A stretch of 63,047 bases of DNA from Gemmatimonadales bacterium (GCA_013140635.1 JABFSM010000054.1:1-63047); one strand, 5' to 3'; counted from the first letter of the stretch, positions 3,070-57,624 are shown. Notes: generated by a model not told the origin, from the sequence alone. Program-made: numbers and translations.

Positions 3070-3918
3070 TTGCGTAAGCAAGACCCGATCCATCTCTTCT
3101 CGGTGGACGTGGAGGAGCACTTCCAGGTCAGCGCCTTCGATGGGGTGCTCTCTCGCGACGCCTGGGACAGCCAACCGAGCCGAGTCGAGGCCAGCACGCA
3201 ACGGTTGCTCGATCTGCTCGCCAAGTACGACGCGAAGGGAACCTTCTTCACCCTCGGCTGGGTGGCGGAGCGCCGGCCGGACCTGATCAAACGGATCGTC
3301 GACGCCGGCCACGAGCTCGGCTCGCACGGTTGGTGGCATCGGAAAGTCACCACGCTTACGGCGGAGCAATTCCGCGATGAGATCCGGCGGTCGAAGGATC
3401 TGCTCGAGCAGATCTCCGGTACTCCGGTTCGTGGATTCAGAGCCCCGAGTTTTTCGATCGTGCCCGGACTCGAGTGGGCCTTCGATGTGCTGATCGAGGA
3501 GGGGTACGACTACGACTCGAGCCTCTTCCCGATTCGCCGCCCGGATTATGGGTATCCCACGGCGCCTCGCGCCCCGTACCGGTTGACCCGGCCGTCCGGC
3601 TCTCTGGTGGAGTTTCCCATGGCCACTCTTTCCGTGGCGGGGTTCCGCGTGCCGGCTGCAGGCGGGGGGTACCTTCGCCAGTTCCCCATCCGGATCATTC
3701 AGGCCGCCTTTCGGCAAGCGGGAAGGGAAGGACAGCCGGCGATGTTCTACATCCACCCGTGGGAAGTGGACCCGGGGCAGCCGCGCCTTCCGGTCGGATT
3801 GGTGACTTCGTTCCGGCACTACCGCGGCCTCGAAGGGGCGCTCGGCCGAATCGAAGCGCTGCTCGGAGAATTCCGCTTTACGTCCACGGCCCGCTGGCTG
3901 GCCGAGCATTCGCTGTGA
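3070..3918 (+). CDS. Polysaccharide deacetylase, PEP-CTERM/exosortase-locus subfamily
   Basis: 282-aa ORF with a TTG start. Motifs: LFSVDVEEHFQVSAF, GTFFTLGWVAER, GHELGSHGWWH. Its stop overlaps the next start (GTGA at 3915-3918). Confidence 0.85.
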   Translation: MRKQDPIHLFSVDVEEHFQVSAFDGVLSRDAWDSQPSRVEASTQRLLDLLAKYDAKGTFFTLGWVAERRPDLIKRIVDAGHELGSHGWWHRKVTTLTAEQFRDEIRRSKDLLEQISGTPVRGFRAPSFSIVPGLEWAFDVLIEEGYDYDSSLFPIRRPDYGYPTAPRAPYRLTRPSGSLVEFPMATLSVAGFRVPAAGGGYLRQFPIRIIQAAFRQAGREGQPAMFYIHPWEVDPGQPRLPVGLVTSFRHYRGLEGALGRIEALLGEFRFTSTARWLAEHSL

Positions 3919-24209: not shown

Positions 24210-25400
24210 TTATCCGCCCAGCACTTCGTCGTAGACCGCCGCCGTTGCGTTGGCGTTGTTCGAAATGTCGAACCCCTGTGCCCGTTCTTCCGCCGCCCGT
24301 CCGATGGCGGCGCGAAAGCCCCCGTCTTCCGCGAGCCGGGCCAAATGCGCGGCCAGCTCCGCCGGGCGGGCGGGGTGAAAGAGGAGCCCCGAGCCTTCCG
24401 ACACGATTTCCGCCGGTCCGCCAAGCTCGGACGCCACGATCGGCTTTCCGAGCGCCATCGCTTCCACCACGACGAGGCCGAACGGTTCCGGGAAAGTCGA
24501 AGCATGGACGATGGCGTCGGCGGCCAGCATGAGATCCGGGATATCCCGACGTTCACCGAGAAAGACGAGGCGATCGGCAAGCCCGGCCTCGGCGATCCGC
24601 CGATCGAGCTCGGCCCGATAGCCGGCCGCATAGGAGGGCGTTGCCCCGGCAAACCGGACTTGAGTACGCGCCCGGATGCTTTCGGGGAGCGCGATCACCG
24701 CCTCGACCAAGACGTGCTGTCCCTTCCAGTCTTTGATATTGCCGGGCATCAACACGAAAAAATCATCTGGCCGCAGGCCGAGCCGCTGACGGGTGAGCTC
24801 GGGAGGGGTGGTGGCGCGGGCGCGGAATTCCTTGATGTTCGTGCCAAGGTGGATCACCCGGATGAGCTCCTCGGGGATGTCGCACTCGACCAGCCGCGAG
24901 GCGATATGCTGGCTGATGGCTATGACTCGGTCGAACCGGCCGGTCAGCCAACGCCGAAAGGCGGCCTCGTCTCGCCCGGCATCTCCCATGGCCGTCACGA
25001 GGCAGGGGCAGCCATGCCACTTGGCCGCCGGCAGCCAGTCGTCGCATCCGACCCGGGGCGAGTTGTTCAAATGCAGCAGGTCGATTCGGAGGTCGGCGAG
25101 CGCCCGGCGCCGCGACACCACCGCGCGCAGCATCTTGAGGGCGCGTTCCGGGATGGACCCCGATTCGTTGACACGGTTTTCGTACGACCGCACCGTCTCG
25201 AAGAGATGCGTCTCCACGCCGGCGGCGCGAAGGGCGGGCACGAATCGGTTGTCTTCGTAGAACATCACGACCGGCTCGTAGCGGGTCCGATCGAGATGCA
25301 CGGCGAGGTCGTACAAGGCCTGATACGATCCGCCGACGGTCCCATCCTCGTTCGCCTCGACGAAGAGAATTCGACGGGGCCGCGGCGCCGCCGTCGTCAC
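24210..25400 (-). CDS. GT4-family glycosyltransferase
   Basis: It lies in frame within listed ORF 24210..25907. I chose the GTG at 25400, which overlaps the Wzt stop (GTGA). Motifs RRILFVEANEDGTVGGS and STFPEPFGLVVVEAMALGKPIVASELGGPAEIV. Confidence 0.8.
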   Translation of the reverse strand: MTTAAPRPRRILFVEANEDGTVGGSYQALYDLAVHLDRTRYEPVVMFYEDNRFVPALRAAGVETHLFETVRSYENRVNESGSIPERALKMLRAVVSRRRALADLRIDLLHLNNSPRVGCDDWLPAAKWHGCPCLVTAMGDAGRDEAAFRRWLTGRFDRVIAISQHIASRLVECDIPEELIRVIHLGTNIKEFRARATTPPELTRQRLGLRPDDFFVLMPGNIKDWKGQHVLVEAVIALPESIRARTQVRFAGATPSYAAGYRAELDRRIAEAGLADRLVFLGERRDIPDLMLAADAIVHASTFPEPFGLVVVEAMALGKPIVASELGGPAEIVSEGSGLLFHPARPAELAAHLARLAEDGGFRAAIGRAAEERAQGFDISNNANATAAVYDEVLGG

Positions 25401-26638
25401 GACCGCCAGACCGCGCCTATGGGCGTTTCGGAGCCGCTCACGCCGCGGGCCGTGGTCGGCTTGAACTCCGCGTTCAGATTCACGTTGCCGAAAAACGGGG
25501 TCGACTCTCGCACGGGAACGAAGGCACTCGGGCCGTTGGCGGCGAACTGCTGCGCCAACACGTCGAAACTGCAGGTCTCGATCGTATAGGCGCCTGGGGG
25601 CAAGTTCATCTGGAGAGAGAGCCGGACCTCGAACGGTCCGCTCTCCGGAAGCGCGACCCCGGCCCGCTTGGTACTGGTGGCGAAGATGACCTTGCCGGTG
25701 CCCGGTTCTTCGATCCTCACGTCGACCGGATCGAGGTGCGGGGGCACTCCTTCCGGCGCGATGGTGCCGCGGATCGTGAGGTTGATGCGTTCGCCGGTCA
25801 CCACGCCGTCGCGCTCCGCCAGGAGGATCTGCTCGATATGCACCGGGCACGATCCGTTGCCGGCCGTCGTCCGGTCCACGTTCAGGTTGAGGTACGCCGA
25901 AACGCACTCCGTCGGCGAACCCTGCTGGACCATCGCGCCGCGGTTGAGCAGCAGCGCCTTGGTGCAGAGCTCCGTCACGCGCTCCAGCTGGTGCGAGACG
26001 ATGACCACCGGAATACTGCTCCGAATCATCTGGCGGAGCCGCTCGAAGGCGCGCTGCTGGAAGCGGAAGTCGCCCACCGCCAGGACCTCGTCGATGATCA
26101 GGACTTCCGGCTCCAGATGGGCGGCGATCGAGAAGCCCAAGCGAGCGTTCATGCCGCTCGAATACCGCTTGACGGGGGTGTCGATGAAGTCTTCCAGCTC
26201 CGCGAAGCCGACGATGTCGTCGAAGCGGCGCTTGATGTCGGCTTGGCGCATGCCCATGATGGCGCCCTGCAGCGCGACGTTTTCCCGGCCGGTCAAGTCC
26301 GGATGGAAACCCGCGGCGATTTCGATGAGGGCTCCGATCCGTCCACGCACCTCGGCCTGGCCCCTCGTCGGACGGATGATCTTGGTCAGCGTCTTGAGGA
26401 CGGTGGACTTGCCGGCCCCGTTCGGACCGATGATGCCCAGCGCCTCGCCGGGCTCGACCGAAAAGCTCAAGTCGCTGAGCGCCCAGAAGTCTCCCGTGGC
26501 CATCTCGTCTGCCGGCCGGCGCCTGCGGAAGAGGCGGCCGCCGAGCGCCGGGATGAGATCGCGCAGGCTGTCATGCACCTGGCCGCGCCGGAACCTCTTC
26601 CAGACATGGTCGAATTGCACCCGGGGGGTGTGGTTCAT
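25397..26638 (-). CDS. wzt: Polysaccharide ABC-exporter ATP-binding protein (Wzt type) with a C-terminal glycan-binding-like domain
   Basis: ATG at 26638 (MNHTPRVQF). Walker A GPNGAGKST, signature YSSGMNARL, Walker B LIIDEVLAVGD. A ~170-aa beta-rich C-terminal extension follows the NBD. Confidence 0.85.
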   Translation of the reverse strand: MNHTPRVQFDHVWKRFRRGQVHDSLRDLIPALGGRLFRRRRPADEMATGDFWALSDLSFSVEPGEALGIIGPNGAGKSTVLKTLTKIIRPTRGQAEVRGRIGALIEIAAGFHPDLTGRENVALQGAIMGMRQADIKRRFDDIVGFAELEDFIDTPVKRYSSGMNARLGFSIAAHLEPEVLIIDEVLAVGDFRFQQRAFERLRQMIRSSIPVVIVSHQLERVTELCTKALLLNRGAMVQQGSPTECVSAYLNLNVDRTTAGNGSCPVHIEQILLAERDGVVTGERINLTIRGTIAPEGVPPHLDPVDVRIEEPGTGKVIFATSTKRAGVALPESGPFEVRLSLQMNLPPGAYTIETCSFDVLAQQFAANGPSAFVPVRESTPFFGNVNLNAEFKPTTARGVSGSETPIGAVWRS

Positions 26639-26646
26639 CGGCAGGC

Positions 26647-27564
26647 TCACAAGTACTCGGCGAACAGGAATTCGAGCCGGTGAAAGAGCACCGCGCTCGC
26701 CGTGAGCAGGACCGCGGCCGCTCCAAATCCGTAGACGAGATACCACGGCTGCCAGATGATCGTTTCCACCCCGGACGCGGCGACCGTCGCGATCGGGGAA
26801 AGTAAGTTATGCCCCTCGATAACCGCTAGGCGCAGCCCCTCCAAAAACGGAGCCAGGGGATTCAACATGAGGAGCGTGGCGAACTTCGGCCCCCCCATGC
26901 CGGCGTCGAAAAAGACCGGAGTGAAGAAGATCCCGAAGGTGAGCATGATCTGCACCAGGTACTTGACGTCTCGCAGAAACAGATTGGCGCAGGACAAGAG
27001 CAGGCACATCGCGGCCGTGAAGGTGACGATGCCCAGGAGGAGGAACGGCAGCCAGACGAGCCCGGTGAGCGAAACCGACCCGGTCACGACGAGCAGCACG
27101 CTCACAACCCCGAGCGAGATCGCCGAGTCGAAGCACTGCGCCAGCATCGACGACAGCGGAAGGACCTCACGGGGAAAGTAGACCTTGCCGACGAGATTCA
27201 TGTTGCCGCTCAGACTGACCACGGCAAAGCCGATGCTCCCGACAAAGAACGACCAGGGAACCGCCTTGAGGGCGGTTCCGGCGACGTCGTTGAGCGTTAC
27301 CCCTCCCCCCGCCCGGGACAGGGCCAGGCGGACGACCACTCCGGCTGTTACGATGAGCATCGGCATGAGAATCGCCCACGCCACTCCCATCACGGCCTGC
27401 TTGTAGCGAACCCTGATGTCTCGCAGCGTCAGTTGCAGGAGCAGTTCTCGATGGCTCACCAGGTCGTGAACGATCTCGCGGAGGTCCGCCAGTGCGGTGA
27501 ACCTGGACGAGGGGGGCACAGCAGAGAGGTTTGGTTCCCCCTGGGCGCTCACGGTGTTTGACAT
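26647..27564 (-). CDS. wzm: ABC-2 type polysaccharide exporter permease (Wzm type)
   Basis: Motif: HRELLLQLTLRDIRVRYKQAVMGVAWAILMP, plus six hydrophobic helices. The start is ambiguous: ATG at 27564 preferred, with upstream in-frame starts at 27591 and 27615. Confidence 0.8.
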   Translation of the reverse strand: MSNTVSAQGEPNLSAVPPSSRFTALADLREIVHDLVSHRELLLQLTLRDIRVRYKQAVMGVAWAILMPMLIVTAGVVVRLALSRAGGGVTLNDVAGTALKAVPWSFFVGSIGFAVVSLSGNMNLVGKVYFPREVLPLSSMLAQCFDSAISLGVVSVLLVVTGSVSLTGLVWLPFLLLGIVTFTAAMCLLLSCANLFLRDVKYLVQIMLTFGIFFTPVFFDAGMGGPKFATLLMLNPLAPFLEGLRLAVIEGHNLLSPIATVAASGVETIIWQPWYLVYGFGAAAVLLTASAVLFHRLEFLFAEYL

Positions 27565-27580
27565 ATTCTGTTGTGGCAAA

Positions 27581-27595
27581 GCAAGATACATGCCG
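27581..27595 (-). promoter_or_regulatory. Candidate sigma-54 promoter facing wzm-wzt
   Basis: The minus strand reads CGGCAT-GTATC-TTGCT. The predicted TSS lies only ~5 nt before the ATG at 27564, so either the mRNA is nearly leaderless or a downstream GTG is the true start. Confidence 0.4.
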
Positions 27596-27683
27596 TTGAT
27601 TGCAGCGATTTGCACTCAATAATCGGGTCCCGGGTAGGGTCGAATTCTCGGGGATTTCCCCCGGGATGGCCCTGCCGGCCATT

Positions 27684-29409: not shown

Positions 29410-29425
29410 CGGCATAGGGTTTGCT
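29410..29425 (+). promoter_or_regulatory. Candidate sigma-54 promoter for the PqqD-B2-NTase-ABC operon
   Basis: CGGCAT-AGGGT-TTGCT, with GG at 29411-12 and GC at 29423-24. It lies 46 nt upstream of the ATG at 29471. It shares the -24/-12 hexamers with the site at 27581-95. Confidence 0.55.
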
Positions 29426-29470: not shown

Positions 29471-29737
29471 ATGACCACATACCGCCGCCACGCCGATCTT
29501 CGACTTACTTCCCTCGAAGGTGAAGGCGTCGTCCTCCACCTCGGCGCCCGGCGCTATTTCACCGTTACAGAGAGCGGACTCACCATCCTCGAAGCGCTGG
29601 TCGAGCCGAAGAGCTTCGACGCGCTCGTCGAGGCGATCCTCCACGAGTACGAGATCGACCGGCCCAAGGCCGAAGAGAGCACCCGCAAGTTCCTGGACGA
29701 GTGCCTCAAGGCCGCGTTGGTGGAAGAAGTGCCGTGA
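29471..29737 (+). CDS. PqqD-family protein (RiPP recognition element / lasso B1-like peptide chaperone)
   Basis: 88 aa. Motif: LEGEGVVLHLGARRYFTVTESGLTILEALVEPKSFDALVEAIL. This matches the typical PqqD/RRE length and pattern. Confidence 0.8.
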   Translation: MTTYRRHADLRLTSLEGEGVVLHLGARRYFTVTESGLTILEALVEPKSFDALVEAILHEYEIDRPKAEESTRKFLDECLKAALVEEVP

Positions 29738-30159
29738 CACGGTCCGGGGTCATGCGCTGGCGGATCCGGACCGTCGGAACCGTGCTGGTGGTGCCTCCGC
29801 TCTTGCACCTGCTGCCCCTGCACCGGTTGGCGCCTCGCCTGGGGCGCGGGAGGCGCTACCCATCCGATCCGGTGCTCACCGAGCGGATCGTCGGCTGGGT
29901 CGACCGGCTGCTCTGGCGTCTGCCCTGGCCCTGGCGTTTCACCTGCCTCAAGCGCGCCGCCGTCCTCTACGCGTTGCTCCGCCGCACCGGGATCGACATC
30001 GAGCTCTGGATCGGCGTCCGGCGCGACGAAACCCGGAGCCTGGCCGCGCACGCCTGGCTCGTGCATAACGGCTCTCCGTTTCTCGAGACCGGCGCCGAGC
30101 ACATTCCGTCGTTTCAGGTGATCGCCCGCTTTCCCGAAGCCGGCGCGGCCGTCCGATGA
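29734..30159 (+). CDS. Transglutaminase-like cysteine protease of the lasso-peptide B2 type
   Basis: The GTG at 29734 overlaps the pqqD-like stop (GTGA). Motif: FTCLKRAAVLYALLRRTGIDIELWIGVRRD...LAAHAWLVHNGSPF, the Cys...His core of McjB-C-terminal/B2 proteins. Confidence 0.75.
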   Translation: MTRSGVMRWRIRTVGTVLVVPPLLHLLPLHRLAPRLGRGRRYPSDPVLTERIVGWVDRLLWRLPWPWRFTCLKRAAVLYALLRRTGIDIELWIGVRRDETRSLAAHAWLVHNGSPFLETGAEHIPSFQVIARFPEAGAAVR

Positions 30160-31277
30160 CGCACCCCCCCATCGCGCTCCTGCTCCGCACCCTCCGGCTC
30201 CAGGGAGGCCTCACCGATCGGGAAGCGGCCGCGGAGTGGGCGCGGGTCGATATCCACGGGCTCGAGCGGCTGCTGGCGTTCGAGGGGGCGGCGCTCTGGC
30301 TTTACCGCCGACTGCAGGCGCTCGGTGCGGCTTCCGCGCCGGCCGGCGCGGAGGCGTTGCGCGCACTGGCCCATGGCATTGCGATGGCCAACATGCGTGC
30401 CGACGAGGAAGCCGCCGCGGTGCTCGCCCTGCTCGGCCGGGCCGGCATTCCGGTGGCTCTCATCAAGGGCCAGGCCCGCCGCGCCGCCGCGGAGCGATAC
30501 CCCTTTGCCAATGCGCGCGCCGTGGCCGATGTCGATCTGCTGGTGCCGGACGACGCGGCCGACCGGGGCTTCGAGCTGCTCGTGGCGGAGGGGTACGAGC
30601 CGAGCTTCGGCTGGGCGAGTCCCTGGAAGGTGGAACACCACCGCCCCGCGCTCTGGAATCACCGGCGGGTGGCCGTGGAACTCCACACCACCACCGGCGA
30701 TACCGTCCCGCCGGCGGAGGCGTGGCGCCGCGCCACGGCCCTGGCCGACGGCGTCACCTGGAACGGCGCCCCCCACCGCGTGCCTAACGCCACCGAACTG
30801 GTGTGGCAGGCGGCCGCCCACGCCCTCGGCGACGGAACCAAGGGGTACACGCTGAAGGCGTTCCTCAACGCGGCGGCGGTGCTGGCCCGCGCGCCGGAGA
30901 TCCGCTGGGACACGATCCGGGAGCGGATCGATGCCGGGGAAGTGGTCGATCTCCGCTCCAGGCGGCGGGTGCCGAAAGCGCGCCTCTGGAGCTGGCTTCG
31001 CACCGCCCAGGATCTGGCCGGCGGCCCCCTTCCCGGCATCCTGGCCGGCGCCGTTCCCTTTCCGCTCGAGCGCCATCTGGTGTGGCGCGCGGCGGTGTTG
31101 AACCGAGGGTTTGGGGAACGGGTCCGGGAACGGCTGCTCGAAGAGGGGGCCCGGACCGAGGCGCGGATGAGTCTCAGCCCCGCCGTGGCGGGCTCCGGGC
31201 CGATGCAGCGGCTCCGGCGACGGGGGTCCTCCCTGGCCGCGCGGCTGCTCTATAACGGGTGGCTCGCGTGGCGATAA
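30156..31277 (+). CDS. Uncharacterised nucleotidyltransferase family protein (NTP_transf_5-like)
   Basis: ATGA overlap with the B2 gene. Motifs VADVDLLVPDDAADRGFELLVAEGY and VAVELHTT. This family is recurrent in lasso and HprK-related cassettes. Confidence 0.7.
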   Translation: MTHPPIALLLRTLRLQGGLTDREAAAEWARVDIHGLERLLAFEGAALWLYRRLQALGAASAPAGAEALRALAHGIAMANMRADEEAAAVLALLGRAGIPVALIKGQARRAAAERYPFANARAVADVDLLVPDDAADRGFELLVAEGYEPSFGWASPWKVEHHRPALWNHRRVAVELHTTTGDTVPPAEAWRRATALADGVTWNGAPHRVPNATELVWQAAAHALGDGTKGYTLKAFLNAAAVLARAPEIRWDTIRERIDAGEVVDLRSRRRVPKARLWSWLRTAQDLAGGPLPGILAGAVPFPLERHLVWRAAVLNRGFGERVRERLLEEGARTEARMSLSPAVAGSGPMQRLRRRGSSLAARLLYNGWLAWR

Positions 31278-33103
31278 AGGCGGGGATCACCGCCGGCCTC
31301 ACCCATTTTCGCTCGTTGCTCCGCGCGCATCCGCGCCTCGTCGTTCGCTTCGTCCTGACCTCCCTCGGCCGCTCCGCCGCCGGCCTCGGGACCATCCTCT
31401 TGACGCGCGACTTTCTTGCCGGGGTGCTCGACCGAAGCGCCGGGGCGGGAAGCGGTCCGGCGCTTTCCCTCTGGGGCATCGCCGGCCTCCTGTTCGCCTC
31501 GTTCCTCTTTTCGAGCCTGCTCGCCTTCGACAATCGCGTCACCCAGCAGCGAATGGTGAAGGTCTTGGAGCTCGGGATGATGGAGCGGGTGATCCGCCAT
31601 CTGCTGCGGCTCTCGGTGGCGTTCTTCGACCGGCAGAGCCACGGCGATCTGCTCCAGGCGGTGCGCCAGGACGTGATGGCGCTCCGGACCCTCGTCTTCG
31701 CGCTGGCGGGGATCACCCTCGAAGCGGTCGGCGCGCTGGGGCTCTTCCTGGCCGCGCTCTGGCTCAGCCCGCGCCTGACGCTCTGGGCGCTGGTCGTGCT
31801 TCCGCTCTGCAGCATCCCCGTCATCGTCGCGGCCCGCCGGGCTCTGGCCCGGTCTCGCGAGCTCCGCCGCACCGGCTACGTGCTGTTCGACGCGATTCTT
31901 CAGCTCCTTCGCGGCATCCGGATCATCAAGGTGTACGGGGGCGACGAGGCCGAAGCGCGCACCACGATGGAAAAGGGGCGTCGTTACTTCGACGAGCTCA
32001 TCGAGATGGTCCGGATCAGCTCATATGCCCAGGTCGTGCTGGAAACGATCGGCGGGCTCGGGCTTGTCATCGTGGTGGTGGTGGGCGGCTTCGACGTGAT
32101 GGCCGGCCGGCTCGACTGGCCCTCCCTGCTCGCCTTTCTCCTGGCGCTCCGCGCGCTCTTCGGACCGGTCAACAACATCAACAGCGGGCTGGTGGCGCTG
32201 GGCGGGTTGGGTGCCTCGGTTGAGCGGGTCTCCGAGCTCCTTGCCACGACACCCGAGGTTCCCGAAGCGGCGGATGCCGACCCCCTTCCTCTTCCCCCTG
32301 CTCTGATCTCCTTCGACCGAGTCGGTTTTGCGTACCGCAACGAGCCGGTGCTCCGGGATGTCTCTTTTTCGGTGCGGGCCGGCGAAACGCTCGGGATCGC
32401 CGGGCCTTCAGGATCGGGGAAGACGACGCTCCTCAACCTCGTCGCGCGTTTCTACGATCCGGCCGAGGGGGCGATACGGTTCGATGGGAAGAATCTGACG
32501 GAGATCCGGCTTGCCGACCTCTATGCCAACTTGGGTATCGTGACCCAGGAGCCCTTCCTTTTTGCCACGACGGTCCGCGAAAACATCCGCTGCGGACGCC
32601 CCGCCGCGGCGGATGGTGAGGTCGAGGAGGCCGCCCGCGCAGCGGGAATTCATGAGGAGATTCTCGCCTTGTCGGGAGGCTACGAGACGGTCGTCGGCGT
32701 TGGCGGCGTCGGGCTCTCCGGCGGCCAAGCCCAGCGAATCAACATCGCCCGCGCGCTGGTGAAGAACCCGCCGATCCTCCTCCTCGACGAGGCCACCGCG
32801 AGCCTCGACTCGATGTCCGAGCTCGTGGTGCAGCAGGCATTGGAGCGGCTCATGGTCGGTCGCACGACCTTCGTGGTGGCGCATCGCCTCTCAACGCTGC
32901 GCCATGCCTCTCGCATTCTGGTGCTGGAAGGAGGACGCATTGCCGGTCTCGGACCCCATGGTGAGCTCCTCGAGACCTGTCCCCTCTACCGGAGAATGTG
33001 GGACCTTCAGCAACTAGCGGGAATGGAGCCAGCCCCTATTGGGAATACTGTTGCACTTGTGCAGCAAATACCCGATTTTCCCCCTCAGATTGGACCCTCC
33101 TGA
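31259..33103 (+). CDS. ABC exporter, fused TMD-NBD half-transporter (MsbA/McjD-like)
   Basis: Six N-terminal helices. Walker A GPSGSGKTT, signature LSGGQAQR, Walker B ILLLDEATASLD. It overlaps the NTase stop. Confidence 0.85.
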   Translation: MARVAIKAGITAGLTHFRSLLRAHPRLVVRFVLTSLGRSAAGLGTILLTRDFLAGVLDRSAGAGSGPALSLWGIAGLLFASFLFSSLLAFDNRVTQQRMVKVLELGMMERVIRHLLRLSVAFFDRQSHGDLLQAVRQDVMALRTLVFALAGITLEAVGALGLFLAALWLSPRLTLWALVVLPLCSIPVIVAARRALARSRELRRTGYVLFDAILQLLRGIRIIKVYGGDEAEARTTMEKGRRYFDELIEMVRISSYAQVVLETIGGLGLVIVVVVGGFDVMAGRLDWPSLLAFLLALRALFGPVNNINSGLVALGGLGASVERVSELLATTPEVPEAADADPLPLPPALISFDRVGFAYRNEPVLRDVSFSVRAGETLGIAGPSGSGKTTLLNLVARFYDPAEGAIRFDGKNLTEIRLADLYANLGIVTQEPFLFATTVRENIRCGRPAAADGEVEEAARAAGIHEEILALSGGYETVVGVGGVGLSGGQAQRINIARALVKNPPILLLDEATASLDSMSELVVQQALERLMVGRTTFVVAHRLSTLRHASRILVLEGGRIAGLGPHGELLETCPLYRRMWDLQQLAGMEPAPIGNTVALVQQIPDFPPQIGPS

Positions 33104-33114
33104 GGCCCTCTATG

Positions 33115-33130
33115 TGGCAAGGTTCCTGCA
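33115..33130 (+). promoter_or_regulatory. Candidate sigma-54 promoter for the nucleotide-sugar operon
   Basis: TGGCAA-GGTTC-CTGCA(T). It lies 57 nt upstream of the ATG at 33187. A TGCACttGTGCA palindrome lies at 33052-33063. Confidence 0.55.
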
Positions 33131-43294: not shown

Positions 43295-43374
43295 GGTTCG
43301 AGCAAAGAGCAGGGACTGTGCTTACGCCAAGGCCTCGCGATACTCGGTCTCAAGATCATGTGGGCCACCATATA

Positions 43375-43389
43375 GCGAGACTTGGGCCA
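43375..43389 (-). promoter_or_regulatory. Weaker sigma-54-like promoter candidate facing the wza-like operon
   Basis: The minus strand reads TGGCCC-AAGTC-TCGC(T). The GG/GC spacing is correct but the -12 element is TCGC rather than TTGC. It lies ~80 nt upstream of the ATG at 43294. Confidence 0.3.
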
Positions 43390-47213: not shown

Positions 47214-47230
47214 ATGCAAGGGCGGTACCG
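47214..47230 (-). promoter_or_regulatory. Candidate sigma-54 promoter facing wzc
   Basis: The minus strand reads CGGTAC-CGCCC-TTGCA(T). It lies ~90 nt upstream of the ATG at 47125. Confidence 0.4.
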
Positions 47231-47428: not shown

Positions 47429-47471
47429 TTTGTTGTGGGCGTCCACTTACAACCTGATCGGCTCGGCGGCC

Positions 47472-49007
47472 ATGAGCAGTCCACTGGTTACGGATCCAAA
47501 CCGCTCCTACGCACCCGGAAGCGACAGCTCCGCGGCGCGCGATCCGCTTTCGATCCCCCCGGAGATCAAAGCCAGTATTCGGATTCTCCTGGTCGACGAC
47601 GAACGGACCCTTCGGGAGAGTTGCGCCAGCGTCCTTCAGATGGACGGCTTCTCGGTAACGCTGGCGGGGCGGGGTGAGGAGGCGGTCGACCTCCTCAAGA
47701 ATCGGAAGTTCGACATCATGCTGGTCGACCTGTATATGTCGCAGGTTTCCGGCCTCGAGTTGCTGCGGGCCGCGCTCGATTCCAATCGAGACATCATCGT
47801 GGTCGTCATGACCGGCAATCCCAGCGTGTCGACCAGCATCGAAGCGCTCCGTGCCGGCGCCTGGGACTACCTTCCGAAGCCGTTCTCGGCGACCCATCTC
47901 CAGGTCTTGATCGGCCGAGCATCGCACGCGGTCATGGTCAATCGCGAAGCCAGCGAGCTTCGCCAGCGGGTTCTTCAGCAGCACAGCCACAGCGATACTC
48001 TGACCCTCATCGGCATTTCACCGCCATTCCGGAAGGCAGTCGAGTTGGCGCGGAAGGTGGCCCTGACCGACGCGAGCGTCTTCATCAGCGGGGAAAGCGG
48101 AACCGGCAAAGAAGTCATTGCCCAGTTCATTCACCAGCACAGCCGCCGGTCGCGCAAGCCGCTCGTGGCCATCAACTGCGCGGCGCTTCCGGAACCGCTC
48201 CTGGAATCGGAGATGTTCGGCCACCGGAAGGGCTCCTTTACCGGCGCCGATCGTGATAAGCCCGGCCTGCTCGAGACCGCGAATGGCGGCTCCTTTTTCC
48301 TGGACGAGCTCACCGAAATGCCGCTGGCGTTGCAGGCTAAGTTGCTGCGAGTCATTCAAGACGGTGTCGTGCGCCGAGTCGGCTCCGAGTCGACCGACGC
48401 CCAAATCGACGTCCGCTTCATTTCCGCCACCAACCGCGATCCGCAGCAGGCGGTGGATAGCGGCGTGCTTCGCGGCGACTTGTTCTACCGGCTCCGCGTG
48501 GTGCCGATTGCCCTACCGCCGCTTCGGAAGCGCCAAGAGGACATTCCGCTCTTGGCCAATCACTTCCTCACCTACTATTGGCACCGGCACCGCCAGATGC
48601 CCGACCGGTGTCCGCGGCTCAGCGAGGAGAGCATCGCCTTCCTCAAGTCGCGCCCGTGGCGCGGCAATGTGCGGGAGCTGCAGAACGTCATCGAGCACAC
48701 GACGGTCCTGATGGATCCGGATCAAGTGATCCAGCCGGGCGACATCCCGCTCTACGAGGACGGCGCCGGCGAACCCGCGGTGGAGGCTCGGCCGGTTCCG
48801 ACACCGATGGGGAACGAACCGTATCATGTGGCGAAGGACCGAGTCGTGGCCGATTTCGAGAAGCAGTACCTTACGGCGCTGGTCGAGCGCGCCGCGGGCA
48901 ACATGTCGAAGGCGGCGCGGCTTGCGGGGGTCGACCGTACCACGCTCTATCGTTTGATCGACAAGCACCAGTTGCTGCGGGCCGACGGTGAAGGATCGGT
49001 CGAGTGA
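47472..49007 (+). CDS. NtrC-family sigma-54-dependent response regulator (REC-AAA+-HTH; candidate PEP-CTERM-box regulator, PrsR-like)
   Basis: REC motif ILLVDDERTLRE...DIMLVDLYM. AAA+ motifs GESGTGKEV, FFLDELTEM and ESEMFGHRKGSFTGA (GAFTGA variant). HTH motif NMSKAARLAGVDRTTLYRLI. Confidence 0.85.
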   Translation: MSSPLVTDPNRSYAPGSDSSAARDPLSIPPEIKASIRILLVDDERTLRESCASVLQMDGFSVTLAGRGEEAVDLLKNRKFDIMLVDLYMSQVSGLELLRAALDSNRDIIVVVMTGNPSVSTSIEALRAGAWDYLPKPFSATHLQVLIGRASHAVMVNREASELRQRVLQQHSHSDTLTLIGISPPFRKAVELARKVALTDASVFISGESGTGKEVIAQFIHQHSRRSRKPLVAINCAALPEPLLESEMFGHRKGSFTGADRDKPGLLETANGGSFFLDELTEMPLALQAKLLRVIQDGVVRRVGSESTDAQIDVRFISATNRDPQQAVDSGVLRGDLFYRLRVVPIALPPLRKRQEDIPLLANHFLTYYWHRHRQMPDRCPRLSEESIAFLKSRPWRGNVRELQNVIEHTTVLMDPDQVIQPGDIPLYEDGAGEPAVEARPVPTPMGNEPYHVAKDRVVADFEKQYLTALVERAAGNMSKAARLAGVDRTTLYRLIDKHQLLRADGEGSVE

Positions 49008-50086
49008 GCGCTCCGACCGAGGTTGAAACGGGACTGGTGGAGGCTCTGGAGGCGGCCTGCCGGCAAGTACCGGCGGAGTCCGGCGGCGCGCTGCTCGCCG
49101 ATGCCGCCTCGAGCGAAGAAGTCTCCGCGCTGGTGGGCGTTATTTCTTCCGGGGTACTGGCCCACCTTCGCGGCGAGGCGATGCCTGCGTTGCCCCGGAC
49201 CCATCTGGCCCGCCGCATCCTGCAAAGCTTCCGCAAACACTATCTCGAAGGCGCGGCCGCTCAGTCGCCCCCGGCGTCGAGCGCCACCCTCTTGGCCGGC
49301 CTCGGGTCGATCGAAGCGGTGGCGGCGGCGCTCGAGGGAGACTGGCGCCAGCGGTTCAGCGACCGTCTCTCCGGTCCCGACGGCCTCGAGTTGGTCGTCG
49401 AGGTGGCGCACGATCTTCGCTCCCCGTTGACCTCGATTCTCTTCCTGGCGGAGACGCTGCGCCGCGGGCGAAGCGGCCCGCTGACGCCGCTTCAGGAGCG
49501 CCAGCTCGGGTTGATCTATGCGGCGGCGTTCGGGCTTACCTCGGTGGCCAGCGACGTCATCGAGCTCGCGCGCGGCGGCGAACGCCAGGTCGATCTCGAT
49601 CCGCTCCCATTCTCGGTCGCCGATATTCTCGAGTCGGTGCGCGACATCGTCCAGCCGATTGCCGAGGAGAAGGGCCTCGAGGTGCAGCTGGTCTCGAACG
49701 AAGAGGGGCTCCGGGTCGGACACCCTGTGGCCCTGAGCCGGGTGCTGCTCAACCTGACCACGAACGCCCTCAAGTTCACCGATGAGGGCAACGTCGAGAT
49801 GCGGGCCGAGCCCCTTGCCGACACCCGGCTCGAATTTTCGGTGCGGGACACGGGGCGGGGCATTCCTCCGAATTCGATGGCGATGCTCTTCGAGCCTTTC
49901 CGGCGGCGGCAGCGAGATCGGGAGTATGCGTTCTCCGGGTCGGGGCTCGGCCTCTCGATTTGCCGGAAATTGGTGGAGGCGATGGGGTCCGAGCTCAAGG
50001 TGGAAACCGAGGCGGGGAAAGGCACTACCTTCTCGTTCGTGTTGGCGCTTCCCCGGGTCAATCCGGAGGATGGACAGCTCAGCTGA
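49004..50086 (+). CDS. Soluble sensor histidine kinase (HisKA + HATPase_c, no TM segment)
   Basis: GTGA overlap with the regulator gene. H-box VAHDLRSPLTSI, N-box LLNLTTNALKFT, G-boxes VRDTGRGIP and GSGLGLSICRKLV. Confidence 0.85.
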   Translation: MSAPTEVETGLVEALEAACRQVPAESGGALLADAASSEEVSALVGVISSGVLAHLRGEAMPALPRTHLARRILQSFRKHYLEGAAAQSPPASSATLLAGLGSIEAVAAALEGDWRQRFSDRLSGPDGLELVVEVAHDLRSPLTSILFLAETLRRGRSGPLTPLQERQLGLIYAAAFGLTSVASDVIELARGGERQVDLDPLPFSVADILESVRDIVQPIAEEKGLEVQLVSNEEGLRVGHPVALSRVLLNLTTNALKFTDEGNVEMRAEPLADTRLEFSVRDTGRGIPPNSMAMLFEPFRRRQRDREYAFSGSGLGLSICRKLVEAMGSELKVETEAGKGTTFSFVLALPRVNPEDGQLS

Positions 50087-56055: not shown

Positions 56056-57009
56056 TCACCTGCGGGCGAGTTCTACCAGAAGATCGGGCCTCTCGAAGAG
56101 ATCTGGGCCGAGTGTGAGATGGTAGCAGCGCGCCTGGTTTGCCAATCGCCCGAGGGCGTCGAGGTGTTCCTGGGAGTGCACCGGCTCGTACAGTACCCAC
56201 TGCGACCACTTTACCAGGCCCGCGAGCACGTCGCGAGGGGCCATAGGTGCCAGTTCGGTTTGCTCGCCGATCGTCGGGAAGGCGATAATCTCAGGGAGGA
56301 TCTCCGGAACCCAATGTCCACCGAGCTCCTCAGGCCAGTACCCCTCCTTTGCCCGCTCCGGCAGGGGCAGGCCCCCTTTCGCCCCTAGTAGGCTTCGACC
56401 ACCGCTCCGAAGCGCGATTCTCGACCGGAACCCCATGACGGCGATCTTCCGGCCATGCGCCGCCAGGAACCCGATGTCGTCGGTTCCGATACCCCAGCCC
56501 CGCGAAGCGACGAGCGCCGTGGTGGTGGACTTTCCGCAGTTCGAATCGCCGGCAATGAGCCAACCGTGGCCTTCGGGGTCGCGGAGGGCCGCCCCGTGCA
56601 CGTGATACCAGCCAAGCCGCCGGAGCACGAAGACGAGGACGACGAGCAGGAATGTCCTCGCGGCCTCGGCGATGTGGGGCACCGCCTCGGGGCTGAACCA
56701 GAGCGCGACCTCCGGCCGAGTTGGATGTACGACAGCCATCGCCGGCGCACTGGTCCACATCACTCTGACGGTGCCGGAGGGGGGGCCCGCTTGAATGACC
56801 ACGGTCGGTTGGCGGAGGGGTTCCCGCGTATCGCTGCCGAAGGGCGGGGTGGGAGACACGGTTACCGAAATGCGAAACCGGCCCGGCCACGCCAGCTCGG
56901 ACTCCGTAAGCCAGGCGCGCAGCCCCGCCTCGACCGCCGGGTCGGCGCAATCCAGCTCGTAGCCCCCGGCGTTGCCGGGTGAGGTCTCGACAATCTCTGG
57001 TCTGGTCAC
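56056..57009 (-). CDS. HPr-kinase-related P-loop protein (HprK-related kinase type)
   Basis: Motif: HGAALRDPEGHGWLIAGDSNCGKSTTTALVASRGWGIGTDDIGF (HprK C-terminal-domain-like P-loop). I preferred the GTG at 57009 (~317 aa) because codons upstream (57010-57225) cross low-GC sequence. An alternative start is the ATG at 57102. Confidence 0.7.
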   Translation of the reverse strand: MTRPEIVETSPGNAGGYELDCADPAVEAGLRAWLTESELAWPGRFRISVTVSPTPPFGSDTREPLRQPTVVIQAGPPSGTVRVMWTSAPAMAVVHPTRPEVALWFSPEAVPHIAEAARTFLLVVLVFVLRRLGWYHVHGAALRDPEGHGWLIAGDSNCGKSTTTALVASRGWGIGTDDIGFLAAHGRKIAVMGFRSRIALRSGGRSLLGAKGGLPLPERAKEGYWPEELGGHWVPEILPEIIAFPTIGEQTELAPMAPRDVLAGLVKWSQWVLYEPVHSQEHLDALGRLANQARCYHLTLGPDLFERPDLLVELARR

Positions 57010-57160
57010 TGGCGGTCTGGTCTGTCTCCGAGGAAGGAAGCTTCGACGTCGAATACATACTATGCAAAGACAGCGCCGGGTACCTTGCGGCCCCGGCGCC
57101 ATCCTCCCAGCACGTGCAGTCAGAATCGCGAGATCGAGTCTCCGGACTCGCGCCGGTGCG

Positions 57161-57313
57161 TTAGCACCAGCCGAAGTACCGGTACAACCAATTGCACTCG
57201 GGCGCTTGCGTCTGGCTGGTCTCACCCCCGCCCGACACGAGCGTCTGCGTCAGCACCGCCAACGCCGCTTCCTCGTGCAGGACCGGTTCAACAAACTGCC
57301 GCTTCTGCCGCAT
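57161..57313 (-). CDS. 50-aa candidate RiPP precursor peptide (lasso-type leader signature)
   Basis: I translated MRQKRQFVEPVLHEEAALAVLTQTLVSGGGETSQTQAPECNWLYRYFGWC* myself. The Shine-Dalgarno is strong (GGAGGAAGAACC-ATG). 42 of 49 third positions are G/C, matching coding DNA here. It lies directly upstream of, and co-directional with, the HprK-like gene. Confidence 0.6.
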   Translation of the reverse strand: MRQKRQFVEPVLHEEAALAVLTQTLVSGGGETSQTQAPECNWLYRYFGWC

Positions 57314-57441
57314 GGTTCTTCCTCCAGTCCGGGGTTCCCAAGGGGATGGGTTCGTTCCTTGAGCCATCGGTGCCCCCTGGTAGTGCCACCGTCAGACGCT
57401 GTGCGAAGTCGTGCGAACCCAGCGATGGCTCCCATCAAAGG

Positions 57442-57456: not shown

Positions 57457-57490
57457 GAGGATGCCGCCCGTTGTCTGCTAGATAACTCAT

Positions 57491-57515
57491 TGATTTTGCT
57501 TGATTTATCTGATTT
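57491..57515. repeat. Three phased TGATTT direct repeats in an AT-rich island
   Basis: TGATTT occurs at 57491-96, 57501-06 and 57510-15 (9-10 bp phasing). The minus strand of 57483-57495 reads AATCAATGAGTTA, which fits the IHF-type WATCAANNNNTTR pattern. Confidence 0.5.
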
Positions 57516-57624
57516 GATCGAAGTGGCTTGCGAGGGATCGAATCGGCAATCGATGACTCGGCGCAACAGCGAAGAACGGGTCAGATGGCCGATTCTTGAG
57601 GTGCCAAAACCAGCAGCGGTGGCT

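What the first reader, a model, noticed from the sequence alone, without database searches (positions are those of the whole stretch)
57161..57313. 50-aa ORF with a lasso-type leader signature and a Trp/Tyr/Cys-rich core, upstream of an HprK-like kinase
Seen in sequence: the ORF reads MRQKRQFVEPVLHEEAALAVLTQ|TLVSGGGETSQTQAPECNWLYRYFGWC. Three things support it as a real gene: an excellent SD (GGAGG, 7 nt before the ATG), 42/49 G/C third positions (genome-like coding bias), and a position 150 nt upstream of the HprK-like gene on the same strand. Established knowledge: lasso precursors carry a leader motif Y-x2-P-x-L-x3-G-x5-T-x that ends at the cleavage site. Here F7-V-E-P10-V-L12-H-E-E-A16-A-L-A-V-L-T22-Q23 matches at P, L and the penultimate Thr (F for Y, A for G). 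The predicted core then starts at T24 and has Glu at core position 8, which is a permitted macrolactam ring size. Bulky W/Y/R/F residues follow, and two Cys (core 17 and 27) could form a disulfide. Hairpins lie between this ORF and the kinase gene (CGAGTC-tccg-GACTCG at 57135-57150, nested in CGCGAG...CTCGCG at 57127-57152). That arrangement is common in RiPP operons for setting the precursor:enzyme ratio. Inference: this may be the missing substrate of the PqqD/B2/NTase/ABC genes at 29.4-33.1 kb. A Thr at core position 1 and a C-terminal Cys (not Ser) differ from characterised phosphorylated lasso peptides, so the chemistry may be new.
Basis: partly seen in the sequence, partly recalled or inferred. 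Interest (0 to 1): 0.88.

Follow-up and report, generated by a model that had tools for sequence, protein, structure and literature searches.

The report
Precursor peptide of cyclase-less lasso-like pathway
The 50-codon ORF is a real, conserved precursor-peptide gene of a five/six-gene peptide-modification cassette that is widespread in Gemmatimonadota; it uses lasso-peptide leader-recognition and leader-cutting proteins plus a kinase, but has no ring-forming enzyme, so the product is most likely a linear phosphorylated peptide rather than a lasso.

Summary
The ORF is at 57161-57313 on the minus strand and reads as quoted. It has GGAGG 7 nt before the ATG and 42/49 G/C third positions, and it lies 151 nt upstream of a P-loop kinase gene.

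It is a real gene. Small ORFs with the same leader (F-x2-P-x-L-x5-L-x3-T-x) and hypervariable C-termini sit upstream of the homologous kinase in about 25 related loci. A profile search finds 344 such peptides.

In relatives the order is precursor(s)-kinase-PqqD-B2-NTP_transf_5(-ABC), all contiguous. In this window the cassette is split: A-K at 56.0-57.3 kb and PqqD-B2-N-ABC at 29.5-33.1 kb.

The lasso reading is not supported. No Asn-synthase-type cyclase was found in the 63-kb window or beside 26 of 28 homologous cassettes. Of 149 family cores, 83 have no Asp/Glu at all. What is conserved is a Ser 2-6 residues after the Thr-x site.

The closest described system is the linear polyphosphorylated peptides (LPPs) of Bacillota (Nat Commun 2026). 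This cassette uses a lasso B2 cysteine protease where LPPs use a signal-peptidase-like enzyme. I rate it a new variant of a known kind. The chemistry is inferred, not shown.

The parts
57161..57313 (-). Precursor peptide gene (50 aa). Leader is codons 1-23 (57245-57313), with the RRE-binding motif F7-V-E-P10-V-L12, L18 and T22-Q23. Predicted core is codons 24-50 (57164-57244): TLVSGGGETSQTQAPECNWLYRYFGWC. The conserved Ser27 codon is 57233-57235. The two Cys are residues 40 and 50.
57321..57325 (-). Shine-Dalgarno GGAGG, 7 nt before the ATG
   Evidence: A similar GAGGAGG lies before the L028 homologue.
57066..57106 (-). Strong GC-rich hairpin between precursor and kinase. The core stem is 57089-57100 paired with 57072-57084, with loop GCAA. 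A strong hairpin at the same position occurs in most related loci (z <= -2 in 17 of 21). It is a likely terminator/attenuator that sets the precursor:enzyme ratio.
   Evidence: The simple terminator scan finds none, because there is no free T-run.
57127..57152 (-). It is present but weak, and its conservation was not shown.
56056..57009 (-). HprK/PEPCK-fold P-loop kinase of 317 aa (Pfam PF27840 ScmC family in relatives). It carries GDSNCGKSTT and TDDIGF motifs. It is the predicted peptide Ser kinase.
29471..29737 (+). PqqD-family RiPP recognition element (B1-like), predicted to bind the FxxPxL leader
   Evidence: PF05402, 47.9 bits; synteny; congruence
29701..30159 (+). Lasso-type B2 cysteine protease (Transglut_core3). 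Catalytic Cys (TCL) and His (AHAW) are invariant in 28 loci. It is the predicted leader peptidase, cutting after Thr22-Gln23.
   Evidence: (NF033537, 61.8 bits against cutoff 33)
30156..31277 (+). NTP_transf_5 nucleotidyltransferase. It is the counterpart of PsmN/LppN and is predicted to add a group to the phospho-Ser.
   Evidence: PF14907, 100.7 bits
31259..33103 (+). MsbA-like ABC exporter with no peptidase domain. Homologues 72% identical follow the NTase in L025 and L027.

Best explanation
The ORF encodes the precursor (A) of a RiPP cassette A-K-B1-B2-N-D. A rearrangement has split this cassette into two pieces in this genome.

Proposed pathway (every step is inferred; what is shown is listed in the For line):
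1. The PqqD-type RRE (29471-29737) binds the leader motif F7xxP10xL12.
2. The HprK-fold kinase (56056-57009) phosphorylates, possibly repeatedly, the family-conserved Ser just after the cleavage site (Ser27, core position 4).
3. The B2 cysteine protease (29701-30159) removes the 23-residue leader after Thr22-Gln23.
4. The NTP_transf_5 enzyme (30156-31277) may decorate the phosphate, for example with hexose, as PsmN does.
5. The MsbA-like ABC pump (31259-33103) exports the product.
6. Cys40 and Cys50 probably close an aromatic-rich disulfide loop outside the cytoplasm.

No macrolactam is made, because the pathway has no cyclase. The product is therefore a linear phospho-peptide. It is a Gemmatimonadota analogue of the Bacillota LPPs, with a lasso B2 protease in place of the SpI-like peptidase. 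A conserved hairpin between A and K probably lets the precursor transcript outnumber the enzyme transcripts.
For: Shown by sequence and comparison:
- The gene is real and conserved.
- The cassette order A-K-PqqD-B2-NTP_transf_5 holds in 21 of 24 genome loci and in L025-L029.
- The window kinase and the window PqqD/B2/NTase rank relatives in the same order, with Spearman 0.86/0.68/0.64.
- The closest relative, L028, has a near-identical leader and the same E-C...aromatic...C core.
- No Asn_synthase was found in any window ORF scanned or near most relatives.
- Of 149 cores, 83 have no Asp/Glu, and 144 have a Ser at core positions 1-6.
- The B2 Cys and His are invariant, and the protein passes the NCBIfam B2 cutoff.
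- The kinase model has pLDDT 93.4 and matches PEPCK and HprK/P folds. The P-loop region aligns to HprK.
- A strong hairpin follows the last precursor gene in most of the 21 related loci folded (z <= -2 in 17).

From the literature:
- LPP clusters contain precursor, HprK-like kinase, RRE, leader peptidase, MsbA-like pump and NTP transferase. They have no cyclase and sit in capsule loci.
- In LPPs the kinase polyphosphorylates core Ser3, and the leader motif is YxxPxVLxHQxIxFETxxS (PMC13381572).
- The main Gemmatimonadota consensus FVxPxLxEEASLAxVTLxS has the same spacing: aromatic-1, P4, aliphatic-6 and -12, T16, S19.
- HprK-like kinases and an NTP transferase modify paeninodin and pseudomycoidin (PMC8498205).
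Against: - No experiment supports any step. Phosphorylation, its site and the cleavage site are all inferred by analogy.
- In this peptide the conserved Ser is at Thr+5, not Thr+3 as in most family members and in LPPs.
- Only this 63-kb contig of the MAG was examined, so a cyclase could lie elsewhere in the genome.
- Two sister loci (L025, L029) carry a short PP-loop Asn_synthase-like gene beside Asp-rich precursors.
- An acidobacterial cousin cluster (L032) does contain a full-length cyclase.
- The window core does have Glu at position 8.
- The kinase matches HprK only weakly by sequence, with E about 0.003-0.01.
- LppN showed no activity in the published heterologous system, so the NTase role is open.
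Confidence: 0.62

Rival explanations
1. It is a true (phosphorylated) lasso peptide. Thr24 is joined to Glu31 (core Glu8) by a cyclase encoded outside this contig, and the bulky Trp/Tyr/Arg residues and a disulfide lock the tail.
For: The leader is lasso-type and the B1/B2 pair is lasso-type. Glu is at core position 8. Sister loci L025 and L029 have an Asn_synthase-family gene next to acidic precursors. Acidobacterial L032 has PqqD-B2-full-length Asn synthase-kinase-NTP_transf_5.
Against: No Asn_synthase domain was found in any window ORF scanned. The nearest relative with the same core type (L028) has a gene that reads like nadC (my reading of its translation; not scanned against Pfam) upstream of the precursors, not a cyclase. 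None was found within about 6 kb in 23 further loci. The short L025/L029 protein matches no lasso-cyclase model and matches Asn synthase only at E about 1e-4. Most family cores cannot form the ring. From my own knowledge, not tested here, Thr is not an established position-1 residue.
Confidence: 0.12
2. The peptide is a carrier or anchor for a glycan. The kinase and NTP_transf_5 build a phospho-sugar or polysaccharide linkage on the conserved Ser, using the surrounding EPS machinery, and the conjugate leaves through an ABC exporter.
For: B1-B2-N-D sit in the middle of a large EPS locus. L027 and L032 are also in EPS loci. A Wzm/Wzt-type ABC-2 exporter is a recurrent neighbour of the cassette in L011, L012, L014, L019, L021 and the window. 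PsmN adds hexoses to a phospho-Ser (PMC8498205). The LPP authors raise polysaccharide genes as possible modifiers.
Against: Many cassettes, such as L025 and L028, have no EPS genes in the DNA fetched. Hypervariable cores and multiple paralogous precursors look more like diversifying secreted peptides than a structural primer. There is no direct evidence.
Confidence: 0.1
3. The peptide is only cleaved and exported, with a disulfide as its sole modification. The kinase-like protein is a non-catalytic scaffold or acts on another substrate.
For: The kinase resembles HprK only weakly by sequence. Its Pfam family is named after ScmC, which NCBIfam describes only as a cassette protein and whose function I recall (not checked here) as uncharacterised. 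This core lacks the C-terminal Ser used by paeninodin-type kinases.
Against: The P-loop GKST, the TDD motif and several His/Arg/Trp are invariant across 27 homologues. The confident model matches kinase folds. The kinase gene is the tightest neighbour of the precursor, even after the cassette split in this window. A Ser near the cleavage site is conserved in 144 of 149 cores.
Confidence: 0.1
4. The ORF is a chance open frame in GC-rich DNA and is not translated.
For: GC-rich genomes contain many spurious ORFs. The ORF seems to be missing from the GenBank annotation, because the exact sequence is held only from Logan assemblies.
Against: There is family-wide conservation with invariant residues and a synonymous substitution pattern. 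The Shine-Dalgarno site, conserved synteny and 344 homologues also argue against chance.
Confidence: 0.02

Closest known systems
Linear polyphosphorylated peptides (LPP; lppA-K-B-S-D-N) of Bacillota, Popov et al., Nat Commun 2026 (PMC13381572)
   Same: Both have a precursor with an aromatic-xx-P leader and a conserved Ser just after the cleavage site, at the same spacing (1, 4, 6, 12, 16, 19) in the main subfamily. [quoted passage not shown] Neither has a macrolactam cyclase. Both have 1-5 precursor genes with hypervariable C-termini and are embedded in polysaccharide loci (searches compared).
   Different: Here the leader peptidase is a lasso B2 cysteine protease, not the SpI/SipW-like serine peptidase that defines LPPs. 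The phylum is Gemmatimonadota, whereas LPPs are stated to be restricted to Bacillota. The leader has F instead of Y and a T-x cleavage motif rather than cleavage directly after Thr. Cores are much shorter (4-57 aa). In this window the cassette is split, and the Ser is at Thr+5.
Phosphorylated and phosphoglycosylated lasso peptides (paeninodin, pseudomycoidin, proteobacterial polyphosphorylated lasso peptides)
   Same: Both use B1 and B2, an HPr-kinase homologue, an NTP transferase and an ABC exporter. The leader has YxxPxL and a penultimate Thr (PMC8498205).
   Different: Those clusters contain the lasso cyclase C and phosphorylate the C-terminal Ser. Here there is no cyclase, the window peptide ends in Cys, and the universally conserved Ser is N-proximal.
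Cyclase-containing kinase/NTase lasso-type clusters in EPS loci of other phyla (example L032, Pyrinomonadaceae)
   Same: Both have PqqD, B2, a ScmC/HprK-like kinase and NTP_transf_5, flanked by glycosyltransferases and Wzy.
   Different: L032 has a 610-aa GATase+Asn_synthase gene between B2 and the kinase, plus a methyltransferase. I did not measure L032's kinase identity to the window; its family entered through L024, which is 27% identical.
HPr kinase/phosphorylase (HprK/P) and the PEP-carboxykinase-like fold
   Same: The P-loop G-x-S-x-x-GKS-T followed by DD aligns with HprK. Foldseek matches PEPCK and HprK/P; 1kkl gives TM 0.55 on the target.
   Different: Sequence matches are far below family cutoffs: TIGR00679 scores 13 bits against 240, and PF07475 scores 15.5 against 33.3. 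The N-terminal domain is different, and the genomic context is a RiPP cassette rather than carbon catabolite control.
ScmC (SynChlorMet cassette protein, TIGR04249 / PF27840) and HprK-related kinase A (TIGR04352)
   Same: These are the best NCBIfam matches of the kinase. PF27840 is recorded for many homologues. From my own knowledge, both families occur in cassettes with PqqD-like proteins.
   Different: Scores are far below the curated cutoffs, at about 17 bits against 125 and 200. The partner genes differ.

Membership tests
Lasso peptide biosynthetic system | Precursor leader with Y/W-x2-P-x-L and a Thr at position -2 | tested here: met
   The leader has F7-x2-P10-x-L12 and T22-Q23. P10, L18 and T22 are invariant in 26 homologues, with Phe in place of Tyr.
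Lasso peptide biosynthetic system | Discrete RRE (B1, PqqD family) | tested here: met
   PF05402 scores 47.9 bits against a cutoff of 23.4. The NCBIfam lasso_PqqD models match only below cutoff, at 41.8 against 80.
Lasso peptide biosynthetic system | B2 cysteine protease | tested here: met
   NF033537 scores 61.8 bits against a cutoff of 33. Cys and His are invariant in 28 loci.
Lasso peptide biosynthetic system | Lasso cyclase (Asn-synthetase homologue, PF00733) | tested here: not met
   No PF00733 hit was found in any of about 55 window ORFs. None was found beside the cassette in 26 of 28 loci. The rest of the genome was not available.
Lasso peptide biosynthetic system | Core with an Asp/Glu acceptor at position 7-9 | tested here: inconclusive
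   The window core has Glu8. However, only 35 of 149 family cores have D/E at 7-9, and 83 have none at all.
Linear polyphosphorylated peptides (LPP, PMC13381572) | SpI/SipW-like leader peptidase LppS co-localised with the RRE | tested here: not met
   No signal-peptidase domain was found in the window ORFs scanned. The conserved cassette has no extra gene, and a B2 protease occupies the peptidase role.
Linear polyphosphorylated peptides (LPP, PMC13381572) | HprK-like kinase, discrete RRE, NTP transferase and MsbA-like pump, with no cyclase | tested here: met
   Searches support the domains, and one search supports the synteny. The MsbA-like pump is present in the window, L025 and L027 only.
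Linear polyphosphorylated peptides (LPP, PMC13381572) | Precursor with a conserved leader, a hypervariable C-terminus and a conserved Ser just after the cleavage site | tested here: met
   144 of 149 cores have a Ser at positions 1-6. The main consensus matches the LPP motif spacing. In the window the Ser is at core position 4.
Linear polyphosphorylated peptides (LPP, PMC13381572) | (Poly)phosphorylation of that Ser in the product | not testable with these tools
   This needs expression and mass spectrometry.
Paeninodin-type phosphorylated lasso peptides | C-terminal Ser as the phosphorylation site | tested here: not met
   The window peptide ends in Cys. In the family, 93 of 149 cores end in Ser.
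HprK/P-type P-loop kinases (PEPCK-like fold) | P-loop GxSGxGKS followed by an acidic DD motif on the HprK/PEPCK fold | tested here: met
   GDSNCGKSTT and TDDIGF are invariant and align with HprK 1jb1. The AF2 model (pLDDT 93.4) matches PEPCK and HprK/P at E about 1e-6. The curated sequence cutoffs are not reached.

The most novel reading that the evidence does not exclude
Lasso-type leader recognition and cleavage (B1+B2) has been uncoupled from macrolactam formation in a whole bacterial phylum. It would then make short linear peptides whose N-proximal Ser carries a phosphate-linked sugar or polysaccharide, built by the kinase/NTP_transf_5 pair. These peptides would be co-regulated with, and exported alongside, exopolysaccharide through Wzm/Wzt or MsbA-like pumps. 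In other words, they would be ribosomal peptide-glycopolymer conjugates of the cell envelope or biofilm, not antibiotics.
Probability: 0.12. Interest if true: 0.85.

Novelty: new variant of a known kind. Interest (0 to 1): 0.6.

Why it matters
- It adds an apparently unannotated precursor gene to this contig. It also ties together two gene sets 24 kb apart that annotation pipelines would treat as an orphan 'lasso B1/B2' pair and an orphan hypothetical kinase.
- It shows that linear, kinase-dependent relatives of lasso peptides are not confined to Bacillota, as the 2026 LPP paper states. They exist as a large family (hundreds of precursors) in Gemmatimonadota, with a different leader peptidase. 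The cyclase has therefore been lost, or was never gained, in at least two lineages.
- The family offers a natural test of whether B2 proteases work without a cyclase.
- It offers a very diverse set of short cores: a His/Gly/Asn-rich type ending in Ser, 8-10-residue peptides, and the Trp/Tyr/Cys loop seen here.
- The link to exopolysaccharide loci could make the unknown biological role of phosphorylated RiPPs testable.

Tried and rejected
- Exact look-ups of the window kinase and B2 in the contig index found nothing, so I called genes by third-position GC myself.
- I looked for a lasso cyclase among all large ORFs next to the cassette in ten loci. These turned out to be copper amine oxidases, a beta-lactamase, malate synthase and others.
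- tblastn with the short Asn_synthase-like protein of L025 hit only L029. That protein matches no lasso-cyclase model.
- The simple sigma-70 promoter and intrinsic-terminator scans found nothing around the ORF.
- The sigma-54-like sequence I thought I saw upstream of the precursor (TGGCAC...GGGGGCA, about 57378-57395) has the wrong spacing, so I dropped it.
- I considered a double-glycine leader cut after SGGG and rejected it, because the ABC pump has no C39 peptidase domain.
- An alternative 68-codon start (ATG at 57367) was rejected. The family N-terminus and the Shine-Dalgarno site fit the 50-codon form, and only that form is on record.
- I tested whether T24-L25 rather than T22-Q23 is the cleavage motif. 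T24 is not conserved in the nearest relatives (L028 A1, L029), whereas T22 is.
- The paper on paeninodin phosphorylation (PMC4919450) was not held.
- Literature searches for 'HprK-related kinase' and for RRE-Finder plus HPr kinase found nothing.
- A look-up of the cyanobacterial homologue P0303 failed. L033 showed an orphan kinase with no cassette.

Full report
**1. The observation**

The window is a Gemmatimonadales MAG contig. The kinase product is 100% identical to GenBank HOP28_03035.

On the minus strand, 57313-57161 reads MRQKRQFVEPVLHEEAALAVLTQTLVSGGGETSQTQAPECNWLYRYFGWC. GGAGG (57325-57321) lies 7 nt before the ATG. Third-position G+C is 42/49, and GC by codon position is 0.62/0.46/0.86, like the real genes of this 65.7% GC contig. 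The next gene on the same strand (57009-56056) starts 151 nt downstream.

One detail differs. The two small inverted repeats at 57127-57152 share bases in their 5' arms, so they are not simply nested.

**2. It is a real gene**

I anchored on the kinase. A database search found 155 homologues, almost all from Gemmatimonadota. I aligned 27 of them (A1) and fetched 24 genome loci.

Upstream of the kinase, nearly every locus with enough sequence has one to five small ORFs. They share a leader, consensus (K/R)(K/R)xF(V/T)xPxLxEEA(S/A)LAxxT(L/Q), followed by a hypervariable tail of 4-57 residues. In an alignment of 26 such peptides, P10, L18 and T22 are invariant and F7 nearly so (window numbering). 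A profile of that alignment finds 344 peptides at E<=0.01. All are unnamed or 'hypothetical'.

The closest relative, L028 (kinase 69% identical), encodes MKQKRQFVEPLLHEEAALATLTQTLVSGGSAPEPTPPVYECGQWEWIWNNDCR. It has the same leader and the same Glu-Cys...aromatic-rich...Cys architecture. Over the first 29 codons the two genes differ at 12 codons. Nine of these are synonymous, and 11 of 16 base changes are in third positions.

The exact 50-residue product was also called on two other assemblies, with the same fdh-tdh-kbl-A arrangement. It is on record only from Logan assemblies, so it appears not to be annotated in the GenBank record. That last point is an inference.

**3. It belongs to a cassette that is split in this genome**

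tblastn with the window proteins shows the order precursor(s)-kinase-PqqD-B2-NTP_transf_5, contiguous, in 21 of 24 genome loci. The same order holds in L025-L029. In the nearest clade (L025, L027) an MsbA-like ABC gene follows that is 72% identical to the window's.

In the window, A-K lie at 56.0-57.3 kb on the minus strand. PqqD (PF05402), B2 (NF033537, 61.8 bits against cutoff 33), NTP_transf_5 (PF14907) and the ABC exporter lie at 29.47-33.10 kb on the plus strand.

The window kinase and the window PqqD/B2/NTase rank the other loci in the same order: L028 > L029 > L025 ~ L027 > L026 > L001 and so on. Spearman coefficients are 0.86, 0.68 and 0.64. The two pieces are therefore halves of one system.

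**4. It is not a lasso system**

Pfam scans of about 55 window ORFs found no Asn_synthase domain and no signal peptidase. The large ORFs flanking the cassette in ten other loci are unrelated enzymes.

A short (385 aa) PP-loop Asn_synthase-family gene occurs next to Asp-rich precursors only in L025 and L029. It matches no lasso-cyclase model. L028, which has the window's core type, instead has a gene upstream that reads like nadC. This is my reading of its translation; it was not scanned against Pfam.

At family level (149 peptides):
- 83 cores have no Asp/Glu at all.
- Only 35 have one at positions 7-9.
- Many cores are 4-10 residues long, too short for a lasso.
- 144 of 149 have a Ser within the first six core residues, usually preceded by Val/Ile/Thr.
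- 93 end in Ser.

**5. The enzymes look functional**

- Kinase family: G-x-S-x-x-GKSTT, TDDI and several His/Arg/Trp are invariant.
- Kinase sequence matches: HprK families match only at the P-loop and far below cutoffs.
- Kinase fold: an AlphaFold model built with 27 homologues has pLDDT 93.4. It matches PEP carboxykinases and HprK/P at E about 1e-6; 1kkl gives a target TM of 0.55. I regard PEPCK and HprK/P as one fold superfamily, from prior knowledge.
- Kinase Pfam family: relatives carry PF27840 'ScmC'.
- B2 protease: the TCL Cys and AHAW His are invariant in 28 loci.

**6. What is known**

HPr-kinase homologues phosphorylate the C-terminal Ser of paeninodin-type lasso precursors. Proteobacterial ones polyphosphorylate. 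In pseudomycoidin an NTP transferase adds hexoses to the phosphate (PMC8498205).

In May 2026, Popov et al. (PMC13381572) described 'linear polyphosphorylated peptides' (LPPs) in Bacillota:
- The cluster contains LppA, an HprK-like LppK, the RRE LppB, an SpI-like peptidase LppS, an MsbA-like LppD and the NTP transferase LppN.
- There is no cyclase, and the clusters are often embedded in capsule loci.
- The leader motif is YxxPxVLxHQxIxFETxxS.
- LppK puts up to four phosphates on core Ser3.
- LppN was inactive in the heterologous host.
- The authors state that LPPs are restricted to Bacillota.

The main Gemmatimonadota consensus FVxPxLxEEASLAxVTLxS has the same spacing of aromatic-1, Pro-4, aliphatic-6 and -12, Thr-16 and Ser-19. 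The window's clade has two extra residues between Thr-x and x-Ser (LTQ-TL-VSGG).

The Gemmatimonadota cassette is thus the functional counterpart of an lpp cluster, with a lasso B2 cysteine protease where LPPs have LppS. A cyclase-containing cousin exists in Acidobacteria. L032 has PqqD-B2-610-aa Asn synthase-kinase-methyltransferase-NTP_transf_5 inside an EPS locus. The broader kinase family has at least 1776 members in Cyanobacteria, Acidobacteria and Chloroflexi.

**7. Most likely mechanism (inferred)**

1. The RRE binds F7xxP10xL12.
2. The kinase (poly)phosphorylates Ser27.
3. B2 cuts after Thr22-Gln23.
4. The NTase may add a sugar or nucleotide to the phosphate.
5. The ABC pump exports the product.
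6. Cys40 and Cys50 form a disulfide loop.

A strong GC hairpin follows the last precursor gene in most of the 21 related loci folded (z <= -2 in 17). In the window it lies at about 57066-57106, and the 110-nt segment downstream of the precursor stop that contains it has z about -4. This fits the common RiPP arrangement of a terminator or attenuator between precursor and enzymes.

**8. Context**

Most of the window (about 1-55 kb) is an exopolysaccharide locus. It contains:
- GT4, GT2 and GT25 glycosyltransferases, Wzy and MBOAT.
- Deacetylases, including one with DUF3473.
- Wza, Wzc and Wzb, and a priming sugar transferase.
- A Wzm/Wzt ABC-2 exporter and nucleotide-sugar enzymes.
- A sigma-54 response regulator with its histidine kinase.

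The same kind of context is seen in L027 and L032 but not in all loci.

**9. Limits**

Nothing here is experimental. Only one contig of the MAG was available. The phosphorylation site, the cleavage site and the NTase chemistry rest on analogy. The biological role is unknown, as it also is for LPPs.

Noticed in passing
window 29410-29425 (+), 57063-57078 (-), 47215-47230 (-), 43374-43389 (-), 33115-33130 (+), 3077-3092 (-) and others: Matches to the sigma-54 promoter pattern (TGGCAC-N5-TTGCW, up to 2 mismatches) are no more numerous than chance: 19 against 17 expected. However, 10 of the 19 lie 0-120 nt upstream of a gene start on the same strand, against 0.9 expected for random placement. These include the PqqD operon, the kinase, Wza, Wzc and an epimerase. 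With the sigma-54 response regulator and histidine kinase at 47430-50086, this suggests the peptide cassette and the EPS genes are co-regulated. The different base composition of intergenic DNA was not controlled for.
   Followed up: partly
window 25397-27615 (-); L011, L012, L014, L019, L021 downstream of the NTase: A Wzm/Wzt-type ABC-2 glycopolymer exporter pair (NCBIfam galactan/teichoic-acid export families) lies about 2 kb from the window's PqqD gene. Homologues 46-47% identical lie just after the NTP_transf_5 gene, on the opposite strand, in at least five loci of the His/Gly-rich subfamily.
   Followed up: partly
L025 8086-9246; L029 867-2024: A short (385-386 aa) PP-loop protein (SGGRDSS motif; PF00733 on record) sits directly beside precursors with Asp-rich cores in the two sister loci. 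It matches Asn synthase only at E about 1e-4 and matches no lasso-cyclase model. It may be an amide-forming tailoring enzyme or a minimal cyclase confined to that subclade.
   Followed up: partly
L005 3548-5518; L016 4044-5924: A copper amine oxidase gene lies immediately upstream of the kinase in two loci. In L016 it lies between a precursor gene (3609-3719) and the kinase. It may be a clade-specific tailoring enzyme.
   Followed up: no
Database peptides P0121-P0240; L010, L011, L012, L017, L021: The largest precursor subfamily has cores of the type ISGG(K/R/G)...(H/G/N-rich)...HGHGHNS. Overall core composition is 25% Gly, 11% His and 10% Asn, and these cores almost always end in Ser. This looks like a metal-binding or highly basic linear peptide and is quite unlike the window's Trp/Tyr/Cys core. 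Several peptides stop right after a conserved GG(Q/V/G)PT motif.
   Followed up: no
L008 1136-1612; L021 4592-7187: L008 has five tandem precursor genes with 8-10-residue cores. L021 has a tandem duplication of kinase plus PqqD around the precursor.
   Followed up: no
L032 5216-11352 (Pyrinomonadaceae, GCA_013816505.1): This acidobacterial EPS locus has PqqD-B2-full-length Asn synthase-ScmC/HprK-like kinase-methyltransferase-NTP_transf_5 followed by Wzy. It is a cyclase-containing cousin of the cassette, also inside polysaccharide genes. I did not look for its precursor.
   Followed up: no
window about 57470-57530 (-): An unusually AT-rich stretch (…gatcaaatcagataaatcaagcaaaatcaatgagttatctag…) lies in the 311-nt gap between kbl and the precursor gene. 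It is a candidate promoter or regulatory region, but the sigma-70 and sigma-54 patterns do not match it.
   Followed up: no
window 3070-3918 (+), 47430-50086 (+); L026 18101-18886: A DUF3473 polysaccharide deacetylase and a sigma-54 regulator/kinase pair resemble, from memory, components of PEP-CTERM/exosortase EPS systems. L026 has a PEP-CTERM-domain protein near its cassette. I did not search the window for an exosortase.
   Followed up: no
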